Positions 24,122 through 31,290 of a DNA stretch of 32,000 nt are shown one piece after another. This stretch comes from Moraxella nasicaprae (lineage in GTDB: Bacteria > Pseudomonadota > Gammaproteobacteria > Pseudomonadales > Moraxellaceae): positions 1,230,001-1,262,000 of the forward strand of contig NZ_CP089977.1 of the NCBI RefSeq assembly GCF_025643275.1. The letters run 5' to 3'. Below the pieces are notes generated by a model. That model was not told the origin of the DNA and ran no database searches. It saw only the letters and a program-made list of their open reading frames with translations. The translations under genes and the position numbers were made by a program. Numbering within the stretch: position 1 is the first letter of the stretch; the number at the start of each line of letters is the position of its first letter.

Positions 24122-26851
24122 ATGGCGAATAAGACAGTTAAAGAACTAGCCCAAATCTCAAAACAGACCCCAGAGGTGGTGTTAAAACAATTAACCGATG
24201 CAGGTTTGCCTGCTCGTGGCGAAAACGATGTCGTCAGCGAGGCGGAACAAGAGCATCTGGTCAGCTTTTTGAAACAAAGTCATGGCGAGAAAAAATCTCG
24301 CATCAGTCTAAAATCTCGAACCACTTCAACTGCCCAAGTGACAGGCACTTCTGGCAAATCTAAGACGGTCAATGTCGTACGCACCAAGAAAGTTGTGTAC
24401 GAAAAACCAGATCCAGCCAAGATTGAGGCTCAAATCGCTGCCCAAGCAAAAGCAGCCGAAGAAGAACGCCTCAAAGCCATCGAAGCAAAACAAGCCGCTG
24501 AACGCAGCAAAAAAGAAGCAGCAGAACGCCAAGCGGCAACTTTGGCTGCCATGCGTGCCAATACTGCTCCTGCCGAAAAAGCAGAAACCGCTTCTGTGGT
24601 GGTCAAAAAGACCAAAAAAGAAGAGGTGGCGGTTGAAATCAAGACTGATAAGAAAAAAGCTCAGCCAGCTAAGCCTGCCAAAACAGAATCTGCCGAAGAC
24701 AAAGCCGCTCGTCAGGCTCGTGAAGCAGAAGAAGACCGTTTGCGTCAAATGGAGGCTGAGACTCGCCGTAAAGCTGCCGAAGAAGCCCAAAAGCGTACTT
24801 TGGAGCAGATGAAGCAGATGGCAAGTCGCTACAATGATAATGAAGAGACCGCCACATCAGCTGTGGTGCGTACCAGAGATGATGCACCGCTTGCTGACGG
24901 TTTGGTGGGTAAGGCATTAGAAGAATCCTTTGAAAAAGAACGCCGTGAAATTAAGCGTGGCACGGCTGGCAACTCTGGCAAAAACAGTAAAAAAGGCGGT
25001 CGTCGCAACCAAGAAGAGCGAGAGATTAAGACCAAAGCTCGTGGTCTAAAATCATCTCAGGCAAATAAACACAAATTTGAGATGCCTGTCGAAAAAATCG
25101 TCCATAATGTTGAAGTGGGCGAGGGCATTGTGGTGTCGGATTTGGCTCAAAAAATGGCAGTCAAAGTCCGTGAAGTCATTAAGGCCTTAATGAAGATGGG
25201 CGAGATGGTGCGTGAAGGCGACACCATTGACCAAGATACCGCAGGGCTTGTCATCGAAGAATTTGGTCATATTTTAGTGCCTGTTTCTGAAACTAAGCTA
25301 GAAGATGATTTGCAAGAAGCCGTCAATGAAAAATCAGGCAACATTCAAACTCGTCCGCCTGTGGTGACCATCATGGGTCATGTTGACCATGGTAAGACCT
25401 CATTGTTGGATAAGATTCGTGCCACCAAAGTTGCTAGCGGCGAGGCTGGCGGCATCACTCAGCACATCGGTGCTTATCATGTGGAGACTGAGCGTGGTGT
25501 GATTACTTTCCTTGACACACCAGGACACGCTGCCTTTACAGCGATGCGTTCTCGTGGTGCTCAGGCGACCGATATTGTCGTGCTGGTTGTGGCGGCTGAT
25601 GATGGCATGATGCCACAGACCGAAGAGGCGATTGACCACGCTCGTGCAGCTGGTACGCCTTTGATTGTTGCCATCAACAAAATGGATAAAGATACCGCTG
25701 ACCCTGACCGTGTCATCAATGAGCTGTCTGTCAAAGAAGTCATTCCAGAAGAATGGGGCGGCGATGTGCCAATGGTGCGTGTTTCTGCCAAGAGCGGCAT
25801 GGGCATTGATGAGCTATTAGAAGTCATCAGCATTCAAGCTGAGGTCATGGAGCTTGAAGCTCCTGTGGACGGTGCAGCTCAAGGCGTGGTCATCGAATCT
25901 CGTCTGGACAAAGGTCGTGGTGCAGTAGCAAGTCTGCTTGTCAAAAAAGGCACATTAAATCAAGGCGATTTGGTACTGGCTGGCGAATACTACGGCAAGG
26001 TGCGTGCGATGACCGATGAAAATGGTCAGCGTATCAAGCATGCAGGCCCATCGATTCCTGTGGAGATTTTGGGCTTGCCAGAAGCACCAGCAGCAGGTTC
26101 AGAATTCTTGGTGGTGTCTGATGAGAAAAAAGCTCGTGAAGTTGCTGATTTCCGTGCCGCTCGTGAACGAGATCGTATCCTAGAACGCCAAAACAAAATG
26201 CGACTAGACACTTTGTTTGATAGTATGGGCAATAGCGAAGTTGCTACCTTAAATATCATTCTAAAAACAGATGTTCGTGGTTCGTTAGAGGCACTGCTTG
26301 GTGCGTTGGACGAGCTTTCTACCGATGAAGTCAAGGTGCGAGTCATCAGTTCTGGCGTGGGTGCGATTACTGAGTCTGATGTGATTTTGGCGGAGTCTAG
26401 CGAAGCGGTGCTACTTGGCTTTAATGTTCGTGCAGACAATGCAGGTAAGAAAAAAGCGGACGCAGCAGGCTTAGACATTCGTTATTATAGCGTGATTTAT
26501 GGCTTGATTGATGATGTCAAGGCAGCAATGAGTGGTATGCTTGCCCCTGAGCACCGTGAACAAATCTTGGGTATTGCTGAGGTGCGTGAAGTGTTCCGTT
26601 CAAGCAAGTTTGGGGCAGCGGCTGGTTGTATGGTTCAAGAAGGTACAATCCATCGCAACAAACCAATCCGTGTTTTGCGTGATGATAAGGTCATCTTTAC
26701 AGGTCAGTTGCAATCATTACGCCGTTACAAAGACGATGTCAATGAGGTCAAAGCTGGCATGGAATGTGGTCTTGCGGTCAAAGGCTATGAAGTGGCTGTG
26801 GGCGATAAGATTGAAGTCTTTGAAATCCACGAAGTTCGTCGTGAGCTGTAA
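24122..26851 (+). CDS. infB: translation initiation factor IF-2
   Basis: 909 aa with a K/E/A-rich N-terminal region, G domain [21 protein letters not shown], and C-terminal domains. SD AGGTGA. Confidence 0.95.
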
Positions 26852-26968: not shown

Positions 26969-27364
26969 ATGAATCAACGCTTACAACGATTGGCTGACCA
27001 AATCCAGCGAACCTTATCAAGTCTAATCCGTGATGAGATTAACGACCCTCGTTTGACGGGGTTTGTGACCATTTCTGGTGTCAAAGTCAGTCCAGACTTA
27101 GGCTATGCAGATGTCTATGTGACCATCTTGGAACCAAATCAAGACACAGGCATGAATAAAGAATCGCATCAAGAAAGTATGCAAATTTTAAACCGTGCAT
27201 CAGGATTTTTGCGAACGCAGTTATCTGCCACGATGAAAACTCGTACCACGCCACGCCTAAGATTTCATTATGATGAAGTGACGGCACACGGCAACCACAT
27301 GATGGATTTGATTAGCCAAGCCATGCGAGAAACTGCCAAAAATGACCATCAAGACGATGAATAA
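26969..27364 (+). CDS. rbfA: ribosome-binding factor A
   Basis: MNQRLQRLADQIQRTLSSLIRDEINDPRL...VTISGVKVSPDL..A.VYV fits the RbfA KH-like fold pattern. I trimmed the start to ATG 26969 (SD AGGAAA). Confidence 0.9.
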   Translation: MNQRLQRLADQIQRTLSSLIRDEINDPRLTGFVTISGVKVSPDLGYADVYVTILEPNQDTGMNKESHQESMQILNRASGFLRTQLSATMKTRTTPRLRFHYDEVTAHGNHMMDLISQAMRETAKNDHQDDE

Positions 27365-28283
27365 GCAAGTTGTTTCAGGCATTTTATTGCTGGATAAATC
27401 ACAAGGCATCAGTTCGCATTCAGCATTGGCAAAAGCCAAATATCTGTTCAAATCCGATTGCCAAGATTCAAAAAAAGCAGGGCATACAGGCACGCTAGAT
27501 CCGATGGCGACAGGTCTGTTGCCATTGTGTTTTGGGGAGGCGACCAAATTTGCTCAATATGGATTGGACGCTGACAAAGGCTATCATGCCATCATCAAAT
27601 TGGGCGTGCAGACCGATTCTGGCGATGCTGATGGGCAAGTCATCGCTCATCAAGCCGTGCCAGCATTTGTACAAGAAACGCTAGATGGTATTGCAAGCCA
27701 AATGATGGGGCAAATCATGCAAACGCCACCGATGTATTCTGCCCTAAAAAAAGATGGCAAAAAGCTCTATGAATATGCTCGTCAAGGCATTGAAGTTGAG
27801 CGAGAAGCTAGACCCATCATCATACATCAGCTAAGACTTGCCAAAATAGGCGATGATGAAGTGATGATGAATGTGGTTTGCTCCAAAGGTACTTATGTGC
27901 GAGTGTTGGGTGAAAGTGTGGCAGAGGCACTTGGGACGGTGGGTCATTTGACGCAGTTAAGACGCACGCTGACAGGTGGGTTTGATGTTACTGATGCCAT
28001 TGAGTTATCTGTGCTTGAAGCGTTATCCATGCCAGAGAGGATGGCACGATTATTGCCCATCGATGCGATGCTGACACATTTACCGATTTTAAGTATTGAT
28101 GAAACCCAAAAATCACGCCTAAAACTTGGGCAACGCCTTAATGTCAAAGACAAATTGGCAACTTTGCCCACCTTTGATGAATTGCTGTTGGTGCGATTAT
28201 ATGCTGATGGCGTGTTCATTGGCTTGGGCGAGCTTGCCAATTCTGGTCGATTACAGCCCATCAGATTGGTGCAGTCAGTATAA
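27342..28283 (+). CDS. truB: tRNA pseudouridine(55) synthase TruB
   Basis: GILLLDKSQGISSH, the catalytic Asp motif GHTGTLDPMATGLL, and YSALKKDGKKLYEYAR. The start is ambiguous between 27342 (23-nt overlap with rbfA) and ATG 27357 (8-nt overlap). Confidence 0.9.
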   Translation: MTIKTMNKQVVSGILLLDKSQGISSHSALAKAKYLFKSDCQDSKKAGHTGTLDPMATGLLPLCFGEATKFAQYGLDADKGYHAIIKLGVQTDSGDADGQVIAHQAVPAFVQETLDGIASQMMGQIMQTPPMYSALKKDGKKLYEYARQGIEVEREARPIIIHQLRLAKIGDDEVMMNVVCSKGTYVRVLGESVAEALGTVGHLTQLRRTLTGGFDVTDAIELSVLEALSMPERMARLLPIDAMLTHLPILSIDETQKSRLKLGQRLNVKDKLATLPTFDELLLVRLYADGVFIGLGELANSGRLQPIRLVQSV

Positions 28284-28333
28284 GAAAAGACCAATCAGTG
28301 TTTAAATTTTTTTGTAAATTTACCATTTTTTGC

Positions 28334-28362
28334 TTGCCGAATGTTGCGGGGGGGGGTAGAAT
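28334..28362 (+). promoter_or_regulatory. candidate promoter of OMP paralog 1 with a G9 tract in the spacer (TTGCCG-17 bp-TAGAAT)
   Basis: TTGCCG at 28334-28339 and TAGAAT at 28357-28362. The 17-bp spacer ends in nine consecutive G (28348-28356) abutting the -10 hexamer. It lies 68 nt upstream of the ATG at 28430. Confidence 0.5.
28348..28356. repeat. homopolymeric G9 tract
   Basis: Directly read as gttgc GGGGGGGGG tagaat. It is the only G/C homopolymer of this length that I noticed in the window. Confidence 0.95.
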
Positions 28363-28429
28363 ATCTTTGCTTTGTTAAAAGCGTGTTTCTATAAACTCTC
28401 AAACGGTTTTACAGTTTTAAGGATGTATT

Positions 28430-29050
28430 ATGAAAAAGCTACTTTTAGCTACCCTGTTGGCAGGCACTTCAATCCTAGCAATGGCGAATACTGCTGGCTT
28501 GTATGTACAAGGCAACATCGGTGTGTCTAAACTAGAAGCCAAAGCAGACGGTGAAAAATTTAAAGATAATAACACAGGATATACTATCGCTGTGGGTAAA
28601 GATGCAGGTGCGGTGCGTTATCAAGCTGATTATACTAACTTTGGCAAAATCGAAGAAAGTGGATCGGATGGTGTTGCTGGCGTTGCTGGCTATGACGAGT
28701 GGGACTCGGTTCTAAAAGCTCAATCATTGGGCGTATCTGCCATCTATGATTTCCAAACTGTGTCAGGCTTTACCCCTTATGCAGGCGTGCGTGTTGGCGT
28801 GAATCAGCTGAAATTTGAAGAGGATGTGAGATATTCAACAATTGATTTGAATGGTGCTTACACGGTGTATTCTGCAAATGAATCATATAAAAAGACCAAA
28901 GTTGGTGCAGGTGTGCTTGCAGGTGTACAATATGCCATCAACCCGCAACTTGCTGTGGATGCTGGTGTTGAGTATAACTATCTTGGTAAACTCGAAGATA
29001 CTAAATTAAATCAATACGGTGCAAAAGTGGGTCTGCGTTACAATTTCTAA
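28430..29050 (+). CDS. small outer-membrane beta-barrel protein, Opa-like/OmpA-like 8-strand type (paralog 1)
   Basis: 206 aa with signal peptide MKKLLLATLLAGTSILAMA. Alternating-hydrophobicity strands and an aromatic C-terminus GLRYNF. SD TAAGGA. Confidence 0.8.
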   Translation: MKKLLLATLLAGTSILAMANTAGLYVQGNIGVSKLEAKADGEKFKDNNTGYTIAVGKDAGAVRYQADYTNFGKIEESGSDGVAGVAGYDEWDSVLKAQSLGVSAIYDFQTVSGFTPYAGVRVGVNQLKFEEDVRYSTIDLNGAYTVYSANESYKKTKVGAGVLAGVQYAINPQLAVDAGVEYNYLGKLEDTKLNQYGAKVGLRYNF

Positions 29051-29066
29051 TCGTCATGCCCGTATC

Positions 29067-29096
29067 AAACCCATCGTGCAAACGGTGGGTTTTTTG
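29067..29096 (+). terminator. rho-independent terminator after OMP paralog 1
   Basis: AAACCCATCG / CGGTGGGTTT stem (one G-U pair), then T-run. It is conserved after all three paralogs. Confidence 0.75.
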
Positions 29097-29102
29097 TGTT
29101 GT

Positions 29103-29131
29103 TTGACAAATGAACAAGTGTGCTTTATTAA
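29103..29131 (+). promoter_or_regulatory. candidate promoter (TTGACA-17 bp-TATTAA) in the conserved inter-paralog block
   Basis: Perfect -35 at 29103-29108 and TATTAA at 29126-29131. The same block recurs at 30034-30062. Confidence 0.45.
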
Positions 29132-29326: not shown

Positions 29327-29980
29327 ATGAAAAAGACAATTTTTGCAGCAGCAGCCTTAGCGTTATCAGCACAAGCATTGGCAATCGAATTGCCAACAAG
29401 CAACTCGCCATACTATGCACAAGCCGATGTTGGTTATTCACACATCAATGCTAAACACACTGGCGAAACCGTCAAAGAGGGCGATGTGGCGTTCCGTGTG
29501 GCGTTGGGTCGCACTTATGGCAACACTCGCTATGCGGTGGATTATACCCGTTTTGGTGGTGCTGAGAAGCGTGTTTATTCAGCCAAAACCGTAGCGGCAG
29601 GCGAGATGCCATTTGTACCAGCAGACACTTATACCCTAGAAAATTCAAATGATGTTGAAGTACATTCTGTGGGCGTGTCAGCGTATTATGATTTTGCTAA
29701 GATGAATCAATTCACACCGTATGTGGGTGCAAGATTGGGCGTAAACCGCCTAAGCCACGACATTGGCGAAGATTTGCACATTGGTGGCGAAGATTATGAC
29801 ATCAGCGGACATAGTGTTAATAAAACCAAAGTGGGTGCAGGCGTATCAGCAGGTGTACAATACGAAATCAATCCAGCATTGACGCTAGATGTTGGTGCAG
29901 AGTACAACCACTTTGGTAAAGTTGAAGACATCAAAGTGCATCAATATGGTGCAAAATTGGGTCTGCGTTACAATTTCTAA
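29327..29980 (+). CDS. small outer-membrane beta-barrel protein, Opa-like/OmpA-like type (paralog 2)
   Basis: 217 aa with signal peptide MKKTIFAAAALALSAQALA. It shares the strand blocks and the GLRYNF terminus with paralogs 1 and 3. SD TAGGTGA. Confidence 0.8.
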   Translation: MKKTIFAAAALALSAQALAIELPTSNSPYYAQADVGYSHINAKHTGETVKEGDVAFRVALGRTYGNTRYAVDYTRFGGAEKRVYSAKTVAAGEMPFVPADTYTLENSNDVEVHSVGVSAYYDFAKMNQFTPYVGARLGVNRLSHDIGEDLHIGGEDYDISGHSVNKTKVGAGVSAGVQYEINPALTLDVGAEYNHFGKVEDIKVHQYGAKLGLRYNF

Positions 29981-29997
29981 TCGTCATACCCATCATC

Positions 29998-30026
29998 AAA
30001 CCCATCGTGCAAGCGGTGGGTTTTTT
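29998..30026 (+). terminator. rho-independent terminator after OMP paralog 2
   Basis: AAACCCATCG / CGGTGGGTTT plus T6, the same element as at 29067. Confidence 0.75.
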
Positions 30027-30033
30027 GCGTTAT

Positions 30034-30062
30034 TTGACAAATGAACAAGTGTGCTTTATCAT
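30034..30062 (+). promoter_or_regulatory. candidate promoter of OMP paralog 3 (TTGACA-17 bp-TATCAT)
   Basis: Perfect -35 at 30034-30039 and TATCAT at 30057-30062, 37 nt before the ATG at 30099. Confidence 0.5.
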
Positions 30063-30098: not shown

Positions 30099-30749
30099 AT
30101 GAATAAATTTTATCCAATCATTGCTTTGGCTTTATTTTCAACAGGAGCATTGGCAAATGTTGATGGTGTGTATGTGCAGGGTTCTGTTGGCTTATCCAAA
30201 TTAAGCACCAAACATGACGGTGAAAAATTGACCGATGATAAGGCACTCATCAGAGCAAGCGTTGGCAAGCAGGTTGGCAATATGCGTTATGCACTTGATT
30301 ATAGTGATTTTGGTAAAGTTGAGTCGGTACAGACAGAAGTGTTTGAGGCGGATGAAGGTTATCATAATGGACCTTATATTGAGACCGAAACCATGTTGGA
30401 TAACATCAAAGTGCGTTCATTTGGTGTATCGGCAATCTATGATTTTCCATTACATTCTGCCGTCAATGCGTATGCAGGTCTTAGAGTGGGGGCAAATAAG
30501 ATTGATGCCAAACAGCAAAGCAGAACAAAAACAGTCTATGACAACAAAGAGCTTGGCACAACTGAGGTTGCCAGTCAGCATCAGCAAGCCAAAACCAAGA
30601 TTGGCGTTGGTGTGTTAGCAGGTGTGCAATACCAGCTGACATCAAATGTGGCACTAGATGCAGGCGTGGAATACAATCAACTGGGCAAATCTGACCAAAT
30701 CAAGGCTCATCAGTATGGCATCACTGCTGGTCTGCGTTACAATTTCTAA
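30099..30749 (+). CDS. small outer-membrane beta-barrel protein, Opa-like/OmpA-like type (paralog 3)
   Basis: 216 aa with signal peptide MNKFYPIIALALFSTGALA. It has the same conserved strand blocks and GLRYNF terminus. Confidence 0.8.
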   Translation: MNKFYPIIALALFSTGALANVDGVYVQGSVGLSKLSTKHDGEKLTDDKALIRASVGKQVGNMRYALDYSDFGKVESVQTEVFEADEGYHNGPYIETETMLDNIKVRSFGVSAIYDFPLHSAVNAYAGLRVGANKIDAKQQSRTKTVYDNKELGTTEVASQHQQAKTKIGVGVLAGVQYQLTSNVALDAGVEYNQLGKSDQIKAHQYGITAGLRYNF

Positions 30750-30766
30750 TCGTCATGCCCATCATC

Positions 30767-30795
30767 AAACCCATCGTGCAGGCGGTGGGTTTTTG
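30767..30795 (+). terminator. rho-independent terminator after OMP paralog 3
   Basis: Third copy of the AAACCCATCG / CGGTGGGTTT hairpin plus T-run. Confidence 0.7.
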
Positions 30796-30949: not shown

Positions 30950-31216
30950 ATGCTAACTAATCAAGATCGTGAAGCAATCATTGCACAATACAAGCGTGGC
31001 GAGAATGACACTGGTAGCCCAGAGGTTCAAGTTGCCCTATTGACCGCTCGTATCAACGACCTACAAGACCACTTCAAAACTCACAAAGCTGACCATCACA
31101 GCCGTCGTGGTCTAATCCGTATGGTAAACCAACGCCGTAAATTGCTAGACTACCTAAAAGGTAAAGACCTAAACCGCTATACCGACCTAATCGGTTCATT
31201 GGGTCTGCGTCGTTAA
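30950..31216 (+). CDS. rpsO: 30S ribosomal protein S15
   Basis: 88 aa with [39 protein letters not shown], unmistakably S15. Confidence 0.95.
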
Positions 31217-31255
31217 TCACTCTGTTGAGTGGCGATGATTGCGTAACGCAACAAG

Positions 31256-31290
31256 AAACGGCGTGCTTTGGCGTGCCGTTTTTATTTTTT
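31256..31290 (+). terminator. rho-independent terminator/attenuator after rpsO
   Basis: About 11-bp stem AAACGGCGTGC / GCGTGCCGTTT (two G-U pairs), 4-nt loop, then TTTTTATTTTTT. Confidence 0.75.

What the first reader, a model, noticed from the sequence alone, without database searches (positions are those of the whole stretch)
28334..28362. G9 homopolymer forms half of the promoter spacer of the first OMP paralog: candidate slipped-strand phase or expression switch
Seen directly: TTGCCG (28334-28339), a 17-bp spacer whose last nine bases are GGGGGGGGG (28348-28356), then TAGAAT (28357-28362). This lies 68 nt upstream of a signal-peptide-bearing OMP gene.

With nine G the spacer is exactly the optimal 17 bp. 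Gain or loss of one G would give 18 or 16 bp and should change promoter strength.

Established knowledge: homopolymer tracts inside or next to promoters control surface-protein expression in mucosal pathogens. Examples are the poly-G between -35 and -10 of Neisseria meningitidis porA, the poly-C in the opc promoter, and the poly-G upstream of Moraxella catarrhalis uspA1.

That this tract acts as a switch here is inference. Neither downstream paralog has such a tract; both instead carry a conserved TTGACA promoter block. So only one member of the array would be switchable.
Basis: partly seen in the sequence, partly recalled or inferred. Interest (0 to 1): 0.7.

Follow-up and report, generated by a model that had tools for sequence, protein, structure and literature searches.

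The report
Variable poly-G promoter of Opa-like porin
A run of nine G's sits inside the promoter of a surface-protein gene of the goat nasal bacterium Moraxella nasicaprae, and its length differs (9, 10 or 11 G) between otherwise identical copies from other samples. It is therefore very probably a slippage-driven expression switch of the kind long known from the meningococcal porA gene.

Summary
No other G/C run in the 32 kb exceeds 5.

The window is Moraxella nasicaprae (infB-rbfA-truB-OMP1-OMP2-OMP3-rpsO).

Complete tracts in eight copies of this promoter read G9, G9, G9, G10, G10, G11, G11, G11. Two contig types that are 100% identical over 1,810 nt differ only by G11 versus G9. Three more contigs from that clone stop exactly after the ninth G.

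A second lineage shows G9 versus G13. Other Moraxella Opa-like genes carry G8, G9, G14 and G15 at the same promoter position. Relatives with interrupted or absent tracts have fixed 17-18-bp spacers. A tract-free promoter showed no indel in seven contigs.

A hairpin that starts at the 7th nt after the -10 hexamer in 11 of 16 leaders supports the promoter call.

Verdict: a real, hypermutable promoter-spacer tract, a new member of the porA-type class and undescribed for Moraxella Opa-like porins. The effect on expression is inferred, not measured. The ON length may be G10 (18 bp) rather than G9.

The parts
28334..28339 (+). -35 hexamer TTGCCG (TTGCCA in all related copies)
   Evidence: The equivalent hexamers TTGACA, TTGCAA and TTGTCA are conserved in other Moraxella loci.
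28340..28356 (+). Promoter spacer, 17 bp (AATGTTGC + G9)
   Evidence: The spacer is 18 bp in L001 and L119, and 19 bp in L002, L003 and L120.
28348..28356 (+). G9 homopolymer, the variable element
   Evidence: It is the only G/C run longer than 5 in the window. Its length is 9, 10 or 11 in homologous copies.
28357..28362 (+). -10 hexamer TAGAAT, directly abutting the tract
   Evidence: TAGAAT, TATAAT or TACAAT is conserved directly 3' of the G run in 10 or more Moraxella loci.
28369..28382 (+). Predicted 5'-terminal mRNA hairpin (GCTTT-GTTA-AAAGC), starting at the 7th nt after the -10
   Evidence: The hairpin sits at the same offset in 11 of 16 leaders with different stem sequences (shuffle P = 0.0005).
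28419..28423 (+). Shine-Dalgarno AAGGA, 6 nt before the ATG
   Evidence: Read.
28430..29050 (+). OMP1: Opacity-family 8-stranded beta-barrel porin gene, 206 aa, the regulated gene
   Evidence: Pfam PF02462, E = 2.9e-33. PDB matches to Opa60 (2e-17) and NspA. Two hypervariable loop regions are seen among alleles.
29067..29092 (+). Intrinsic terminator of OMP1, which makes OMP1 its own transcription unit
28307..28324 (+). Conserved upstream T-rich TTTTGTAA(C) motif, about 10-25 nt 5' of the -35 (possible UP element or factor site)
   Evidence: The function was not tested.
28261..29130 (+). The OMP1 cassette (truB 3' tip, poly-G promoter, OMP1, terminator, TTGACA block), present or absent between strains
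   Evidence: It is absent from L060 (GCA_030530725.1), L061 and L062, where truB is followed directly by the OMP2 orthologue.

Best explanation
The G tract is a hypermutable simple-sequence repeat in the spacer of the sigma-70-type promoter of OMP1, an Opa-like outer-membrane porin of Moraxella nasicaprae. Slipped-strand mispairing during replication adds or removes G's. That changes the -35/-10 distance (17, 18, 19 bp and beyond) and therefore how well RNA polymerase uses the promoter. A clonal population would then contain cells with high, intermediate and low or no OMP1. OMP1 has its own terminator, so the switch acts on this paralog alone. Shown here: the tract lies between conserved hexamers, and its length varies between otherwise identical DNA. 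Inferred: the hexamers are the working promoter, tract length sets the transcription level, and switching is fast and reversible.
For: (1) Anatomy: TTGCCG-17-TAGAAT with G9 abutting the -10.
(2) Length polymorphism confined to the tract. Complete tracts read G9 (window, L004, L063), G10 (L001, L119) and G11 (L002, L003, L120). L002 and L003 versus L004 give 1,810 aligned nt with 0 mismatches and one gap, G11 versus G9.
(3) L057, L058 and L059 come from three further samples and are 100% identical to that clone. Each ends exactly after the ninth G. That is what a de Bruijn assembler does when a G9 allele and a longer allele coexist in one sample.
(4) An independent lineage shows the same behaviour: L009 has G9 and L128 has G13 in the promoter TTGCAA-ATCTCA-Gn-A-TATAAT.
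(5) The architecture recurs. M. cuniculi has G8, M. caviae G9, one Moraxella MAG (metagenome-assembled genome) G14, and the second paralog in L009 G15, all between a -35 and a -10. Relatives with interrupted runs (GGAGAGGGG, GGAGGGGG, GGGGGAGGG) or no run have fixed 17-18-bp spacers.
(6) Controls. A tract-free promoter (P0013 lineage) is identical in length in 7 contigs. Two assemblies of M. cuniculi (L130 Logan, L131 NCBI DSM 21768; same strain presumed) are identical over 2,687 nt and agree on G8.
(7) Promoter placement. In 12 of 16 leaders a perfect hairpin follows the -10, and in 11 it starts at the 7th nt after the hexamer, where transcription should start (shuffle P = 0.0005).
(8) Precedent. 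In porA, 11G, 10G and 9G between -35 and -10 give graded expression and antibody escape (PMC3639595).
Against: There is no transcription-start, expression or switching-rate data for any of these loci. The related contigs come from short-read metagenome assemblies (Logan), and I could not inspect the reads. Homopolymers are error-prone, and two contig breaks (L118, L129) could equally be coverage drop-outs. No terminator was found between truB and the promoter, so some OMP1 transcription could come from truB read-through whatever the tract length. The promoter score is modest (9-10 of 12). The G-richness persists even in interrupted versions, so G's next to the -10 may have a role beyond setting length.
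Confidence: 0.75

Rival explanations
1. The tract is genuinely polymorphic but has little effect on OMP1 output. Either the real promoter lies elsewhere, or OMP1 is transcribed by read-through from truB, and the length changes are near-neutral slippage noise.
For: No terminator was detected between truB (ends 28283) and OMP1. The hexamer match is only 9-10 of 12, and such matches are common in this AT-rich region (15 found against 8.5 expected).
Against: The -35 and -10 hexamers flanking the run are conserved across species whose surrounding sequence has diverged. A hairpin is fixed at the expected start site. Long pure G runs are otherwise absent from the window, yet they recur at exactly this promoter position in at least five lineages. 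Neutral slippage would not maintain that.
Confidence: 0.12
2. The tract works through a DNA-binding factor or through upstream-element phasing, not through plain -35/-10 spacing. Length changes would re-phase the conserved upstream TTTTGTAAC motif (an activator or UP element) relative to the -10. This resembles the C tract of Bordetella fim promoters or the distal repeats of nadA.
For: A conserved TTTTGTAAC(A/T)T motif lies upstream of the -35 in many Moraxella Opa-like promoters. Four or more G's next to the -10 are kept even in interrupted versions.
Against: A recognisable -35 hexamer is present in every locus at 16-21 bp. Non-variable relatives keep 17-18 bp, which is the signature of ordinary spacing constraint. 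No regulator has been identified.
Confidence: 0.08
3. The length differences are sequencing or assembly artefacts at a homopolymer, and the tract is stable in vivo.
For: Homopolymer lengths are the commonest assembly error. All comparison contigs are automatic metagenome assemblies. Contigs L118 and L129 break inside the tract in ways that allele mixtures do not readily explain.
Against: A 2-nt difference (G11 versus G9) lies between contigs with 0 mismatches in 1,810 nt, and G11 was reproduced in two samples. There is a 4-nt difference in a second lineage. Two assemblies of M. cuniculi (Logan and NCBI DSM 21768) agree on G8. No indel was seen in 7 contigs of a tract-free promoter.
Confidence: 0.05

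Closest known systems
Neisseria meningitidis porA promoter poly-G tract
   Same: A homopolymeric G run of 9-11 lies between the -35 and -10 of an outer-membrane protein gene. Single-G changes alter the spacing and give graded expression and immune escape (PMC3639595). The tract lengths seen here (9, 10, 11) fall in the same range.
   Different: PorA is a 16-stranded trimeric porin, whereas OMP1 is a small Opa/NspA-type barrel. Here the tract directly abuts the -10. The link between length and expression has not been measured, and the organism is a Moraxella from goats.
Neisseria opa gene family (CTCTT repeats in the signal-peptide coding region)
   Same: The protein family is the same (PF02462; Opa60 is the best PDB match). 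Both have several paralogs per genome, two hypervariable surface loops, and independent switching of individual paralogs.
   Different: Neisseria opa genes switch by translational frameshift at pentamer repeats inside the ORF (PMC3960869). No such repeat exists at the 5' end of OMP1. Here the repeat is a promoter homopolymer, so control would be transcriptional and graded.
Neisseria meningitidis opc poly-C promoter tract; N. gonorrhoeae fetA poly-C between -10 and -35
   Same: Promoter-located homopolymers set the transcription of surface proteins (opc: PMC3960869; fetA: cited in PMC5084427, details from my own knowledge).
   Different: The proteins are unrelated (Opc is a 10-stranded barrel, FetA a TonB-dependent receptor). 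The tract is C on the coding strand.
Moraxella catarrhalis OlpA and the known M. catarrhalis phase-variable loci (uspA1, uspA2/uspA2H, mid/hag, modM/modN)
   Same: OlpA is the characterised Moraxella Opa-like protein and binds factor H (PMC10794618). Its gene also lies directly downstream of truB (L073-L079). uspA1 uses a poly-G tract.
   Different: The M. catarrhalis olpA-type promoter has no G tract (TTGACG-18-TAAAAT). The listed M. catarrhalis phase-variable loci do not include an Opa-like porin (PMC7302503). From my own knowledge, the uspA1 tract is not in the -35/-10 spacer.

Membership tests
Promoter-spacer homopolymer contingency locus (porA type) | [quoted passage not shown] | tested here: met
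   G9 occupies 9 of the 17 spacer positions between TTGCCG and TAGAAT. The promoter is predicted, not mapped. It is supported by cross-species conservation and by the hairpin at the expected start site.
Promoter-spacer homopolymer contingency locus (porA type) | Tract length varies among otherwise isogenic or near-isogenic DNA | tested here: met
   G9, G10 and G11 occur across eight copies. G11 versus G9 is the only difference in 1,810 nt. A second lineage shows G9 versus G13. Within-sample mixing is only suggested, by three contigs that end after G9.
Promoter-spacer homopolymer contingency locus (porA type) | Tract length determines transcript or protein level | not testable with these tools
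   This needs reporter fusions, qRT-PCR or immunoblots of G8-G12 variants.
Promoter-spacer homopolymer contingency locus (porA type) | High-frequency, reversible switching within a clone | not testable with these tools
   This needs colony-level fragment analysis or deep sequencing, and a mutS comparison.
Promoter-spacer homopolymer contingency locus (porA type) | The regulated product is surface-exposed | tested here: met
   OMP1 matches the Opacity porin family (E = 2.9e-33) and is homologous to Opa60 and NspA barrels. It has a signal-peptide-like N-terminus and hypervariable loops. Exposure itself is inferred from family membership.
Opacity family porin (Pfam PF02462) | Score above the Pfam gathering threshold over the full domain | tested here: met
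   OMP1 scores 115.1 bits, OMP2 97.2 and OMP3 104.1, against a cut-off of 21.
Neisseria-type opa phase variation | CTCTT (pentamer) repeats within the signal-peptide coding region | tested here: not met
   No tandem repeat occurs at 28430-28500. The only repeat in the ORF is a 9-nt unit at 2.4 copies (28669-28690) in a loop.

The most novel reading that the evidence does not exclude
Animal-associated Moraxella species (M. nasicaprae, M. cuniculi, M. caviae and several uncultured lineages) may share an ancestral, genus-wide system. Under this reading, each member of a small tandem repertoire of Opa-like porins next to truB is switched independently by a poly-G tract in its promoter spacer. This would be a transcriptional counterpart of the translational CTCTT switch of Neisseria opa genes. 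The tract has been repeatedly frozen by interruption, or lost, in other lineages, including human-adapted M. catarrhalis and M. nonliquefaciens. The OMP1 cassette itself comes and goes between strains.
Probability: 0.5. Interest if true: 0.6.

Novelty: new member of a known kind. Interest (0 to 1): 0.5.

Why it matters
If the tract works as inferred, M. nasicaprae and its relatives vary a surface Opa-like porin stochastically. The M. catarrhalis homologue OlpA binds complement factor H, and the Neisseria homologues are adhesins. That bears on colonisation and immune evasion in the small-ruminant airway. It also affects any use of this protein as a vaccine or diagnostic antigen, because an antigen that can be switched off is a poor target.

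It adds a promoter-spacer switch to the genus Moraxella, where the catalogued phase-variable loci are few. It also shows the same protein family being placed under repeat-mediated control by two different routes, transcriptional here and translational in Neisseria.

The mechanism itself is textbook, so the gain is in breadth, not in principle.

Tried and rejected
- Exact-pattern scans for the promoter in genome contigs and metagenome contigs found nothing. The pattern fixed the window's TTGCCG, whereas every relative has TTGCCA, and the species is not among the GTDB representatives (best OMP identity 71%).
- The look-up of the window's own OMP1 found no record. It differs from the catalogued P0001 by one residue, I15T. 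Using P0001 and the TruB variants instead gave the informative contigs.
- The JGI/ENA metagenome survey returned mostly human Moraxella (nonliquefaciens and catarrhalis types) without pure tracts. It served only as a contrast.
- Rfam found no known RNA in the leader.
- RNAalifold on a MAFFT alignment of the leaders gave no structure, because the short divergent sequences were out of register. I replaced it with a position-anchored hairpin count against shuffles.
- A sigma-32 or sigma-E promoter reading of GGGG-TAGAAT was considered and dropped. The motifs do not match those consensus sequences (my own knowledge).
- The G5-TAGAAT string upstream of a Rodentibacter homologue (L028) is most likely coincidence, because that stretch appears to be coding sequence of the neighbouring gene.
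- The original OlpA paper (PMC1797210) and the porA multiple-mechanisms paper (PMC97767) are not held.

Full report
**Observation.** The sequence is exactly as described. TTGCCG lies at 28334-28339. The 17-bp spacer is AATGTTGC followed by G9 (28348-28356). TAGAAT lies at 28357-28362, and 67 nt further on is the ATG (28430) of a 206-aa ORF. The consensus scan reports the same site at 9 of 12 matches. On its own that score is ordinary for this AT-rich region (15 sites found, 8.5 expected). The tract is not ordinary. Only 5 of 100 dinucleotide-preserving shuffles contain any G9. The next-longest G or C run in the 32 kb is 5, and no A or T run reaches 8.

**Context.** The gene order is infB (24122-26851), rbfA, truB (27342-28283), OMP1 (28430-29050), OMP2 (29327-29980), OMP3 (30099-30749), rpsO (30950-31216).
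- All three OMPs are Opacity-family porins (PF02462; E = 2.9e-33, 1e-27 and 7e-30).
- The nearest solved structures are gonococcal Opa60 and NspA.
- Exact protein look-ups identify the source as the 2.1-Mb Moraxella nasicaprae genome (IF-2 UXZ04151, TruB WP_432806238.1, OMP2 UXZ04155, OMP3 UXZ04156).
- Each OMP gene is followed by a near-identical intrinsic terminator (for OMP1 and OMP2; the OMP3 copy was read), so OMP1 is its own transcription unit.
- No terminator separates truB from OMP1.

**The decisive test: does the tract vary?** A protein one residue different from OMP1 (P0001) and the TruB variants of this species led to independent contigs of the same locus in public sequencing runs. 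Two closely related OMP1 lineages gave more (P0003 and P0004, 78% and 76% identity). Every copy has the promoter TTGCCA-AATGTTGC-Gn-TAGAAT.
- Complete tracts read G9 (window, L004, L063), G10 (L001, L119) and G11 (L002, L003, L120).
- L002 and L003 align to L004 over 1,810 nt with no mismatch. The single gap is the tract, G11 versus G9.
- Three more contigs from other samples of the same run series (L057, L058, L059) are 100% identical to that clone and all stop exactly after the ninth G. A de Bruijn assembler does this when the next base is ambiguous, that is, when G9 coexists with a longer allele. This is suggestive evidence for within-sample heterogeneity, not proof.
- As controls, a related promoter without a tract (P0013 lineage) has the same length in seven contigs. 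Two assemblies of M. cuniculi (L130 Logan, L131 NCBI DSM 21768; same strain presumed) are identical over 2,687 nt, including G8.

**Is it really in a promoter?** A survey of Opa-like genes in one genome per species shows a recurrent architecture in Moraxella: TTGACA, TTGCAA or TTGCCA, then 6-9 nt, then a G-rich run, then TAGAAT, TATAAT or TACAAT.
- Pure tracts: M. cuniculi G8 (spacer 16), M. caviae G9 (18), the metagenome-assembled genome (MAG) S24M_Sa_18 G9 (16), and the MAG S11M_Sa_26 G14 (20).
- In the S24M_Sa_18 lineage a second sample has G13 instead of G9 (L128).
- The next paralog in that same array has its own tract, TTGCAA-ATCTCA-G15-TAGAAT.
- Other relatives carry interrupted runs (GGAGAGGGG, GGAGGGGG, GGGGGAGGG) or none at all. 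Their spacers are fixed at 18 bp, or 17 bp in one case.
- The hexamers therefore stay put while the sequence between and around them changes. That is the footprint of a working promoter.
- As a second line of evidence, 12 of 16 leaders have a perfect hairpin of 4 bp or more just after the -10. In 11 it starts at the 7th nt after the hexamer, with differing stem sequences (GCTTT, GCTTTAA, GCTC, CACCC, GCTTAT and others). Shuffled leaders give 3.9 of 16 on average (P = 0.0005).
- That offset is where a sigma-70 transcript should begin, so the mRNA would start with a 5'-terminal stem-loop. From my own knowledge, such a stem-loop stabilises E. coli ompA mRNA. In the window it is 28369-28382.

**Mechanism.**
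- Shown: a long G run occupies the promoter spacer, and it is the one place where otherwise identical copies differ in length.
- Inferred: slipped-strand mispairing changes the -35/-10 distance in 1-bp steps, and promoter strength follows.
- The observed states span 17-19 bp in the window's own promoter type (the M. nasicaprae clone and two related OMP1 lineages) and 16-21 bp across the genus. Some copies are therefore probably near maximal and others nearly off (G13-G15).
- Stable relatives favour 18 bp, so the strongest state here may be G10.
- The precedent is porA. Its 11G, 10G and 9G tracts between -35 and -10 give stepwise lower expression and allow escape from bactericidal antibody (PMC3639595).

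**Rivals.**
- Assembly artefact is unlikely. The differences are 2 and 4 nt, G11 was reproduced in two samples, and the controls are clean. I could not inspect the reads, however.
- A polymorphic but functionally idle tract is possible if truB read-through dominates. That does not explain why pure G runs recur at exactly this position in several lineages when they are absent elsewhere.
- A factor-dependent mechanism is conceivable, given a conserved TTTTGTAAC motif upstream of the -35. It is not required by the evidence.

**Comparison and novelty.** This is a porA-type promoter-spacer switch attached to an Opa-family gene. Neisseria opa genes belong to the same protein family but switch by CTCTT frameshifting inside the ORF (PMC3960869), and OMP1 has no such repeat. 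In M. catarrhalis the catalogued repeat loci are uspA1, uspA2/2H, mid/hag and the mod genes (PMC7302503). Its Opa-like gene also lies next to truB but has no G tract. Full-text searches found no report of a poly-G promoter on a Moraxella Opa-like porin. I therefore file it as a new member of a known kind.

OMP3 does have a TTGACA-17-TATCAT promoter (30034-30062). The similar block after OMP1 (29103-29131) ends in a degenerate TATTAA about 195 nt before OMP2. It also belongs to an 870-bp OMP1 cassette (28261-29130) that is missing from three related assemblies, where truB runs straight into the OMP2 orthologue with its own upstream region intact.

**Score.** The mechanism is well known and expression was not measured. 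Interest is 0.5.

Noticed in passing
window 28261-29130; L060 4905-4934; L061, L062: The whole OMP1 unit (last ~23 nt of truB, poly-G promoter, gene, terminator, TTGACA block) is an ~870-bp presence/absence polymorphism. The Moraxella sp. MAG GCA_030530725.1 and two ERR1274334x contigs go from truB straight to the OMP2 orthologue.
   Followed up: partly
L009 1169-1177 and 2003-2017 (MAG Moraxella sp. S24M_Sa_18): Two consecutive Opa-like paralogs downstream of truB each have their own promoter tract (G9 and G15) behind the same -35 and prefix (CCCTTGCAAATCTCA). This suggests a repertoire of independently switchable genes.
   Followed up: partly
window 28369-28382 and equivalent positions in L005, L009, L010, L014, L018, L024, L025, L027, L078, L120: A short perfect hairpin starts at the 7th nt after the -10 hexamer in 11 of 16 Opa-like leaders, with different stem sequences (P = 0.0005 against shuffles). 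It is probably a 5'-terminal mRNA stem-loop.
   Followed up: partly
window 28307-28324; L010, L014-L018, L021, L025 about 20-25 nt 5' of the -35: A conserved T-rich motif TTTTGTAAC(A/T)T lies upstream of the -35 of many Moraxella Opa-like promoters. The window has the variant TTTTTTTGTAAATTTACC. It could be an UP element or a regulator site.
   Followed up: no
window 29067-29131, 29998-30062, 30767-30792: Each of the three paralogs is followed by a near-identical terminator (AAACCCATCGTGCA..GGTGGGTTTTT). The first two are followed by a TTGACAAATGAACAAGTGTGCTTTAT block, which is the OMP3 promoter in the second copy and a degenerate remnant (TATTAA) in the first. These are traces of the tandem duplication that built the array.
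   Followed up: partly
window 28669-28690: A 9-nt tandem repeat (TGGCGTTGC, 2.4 copies) encodes GVAGVAG in the first hypervariable loop of OMP1. Alleles from related lineages differ in this loop by substitutions, not by copy number.
   Followed up: partly
window 28339, 28307-28313, 28326-28331: The window strain differs from every related copy by an A-to-G change in the last base of the -35 (TTGCCG versus TTGCCA) and by two single-T length differences in T runs upstream. These could be real or could be homopolymer errors of the genome assembly.
   Followed up: no
window 31239-31290: A weak Rfam match to Salmonella sRNA STnc320 (31.2 bits against a gathering score of 50, E = 0.004) coincides with the strong terminator hairpin after rpsO (31254-31283). 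It is most likely just the terminator.
   Followed up: no
L073-L079 (metagenome contigs of M. catarrhalis type), L121-L127: The Opa-like gene lies immediately downstream of truB (and before rpsO) in M. catarrhalis- and M. nonliquefaciens-type genomes too. The truB-rpsO gap is therefore a conserved home for this gene family across the genus, holding one to three copies.
   Followed up: partly
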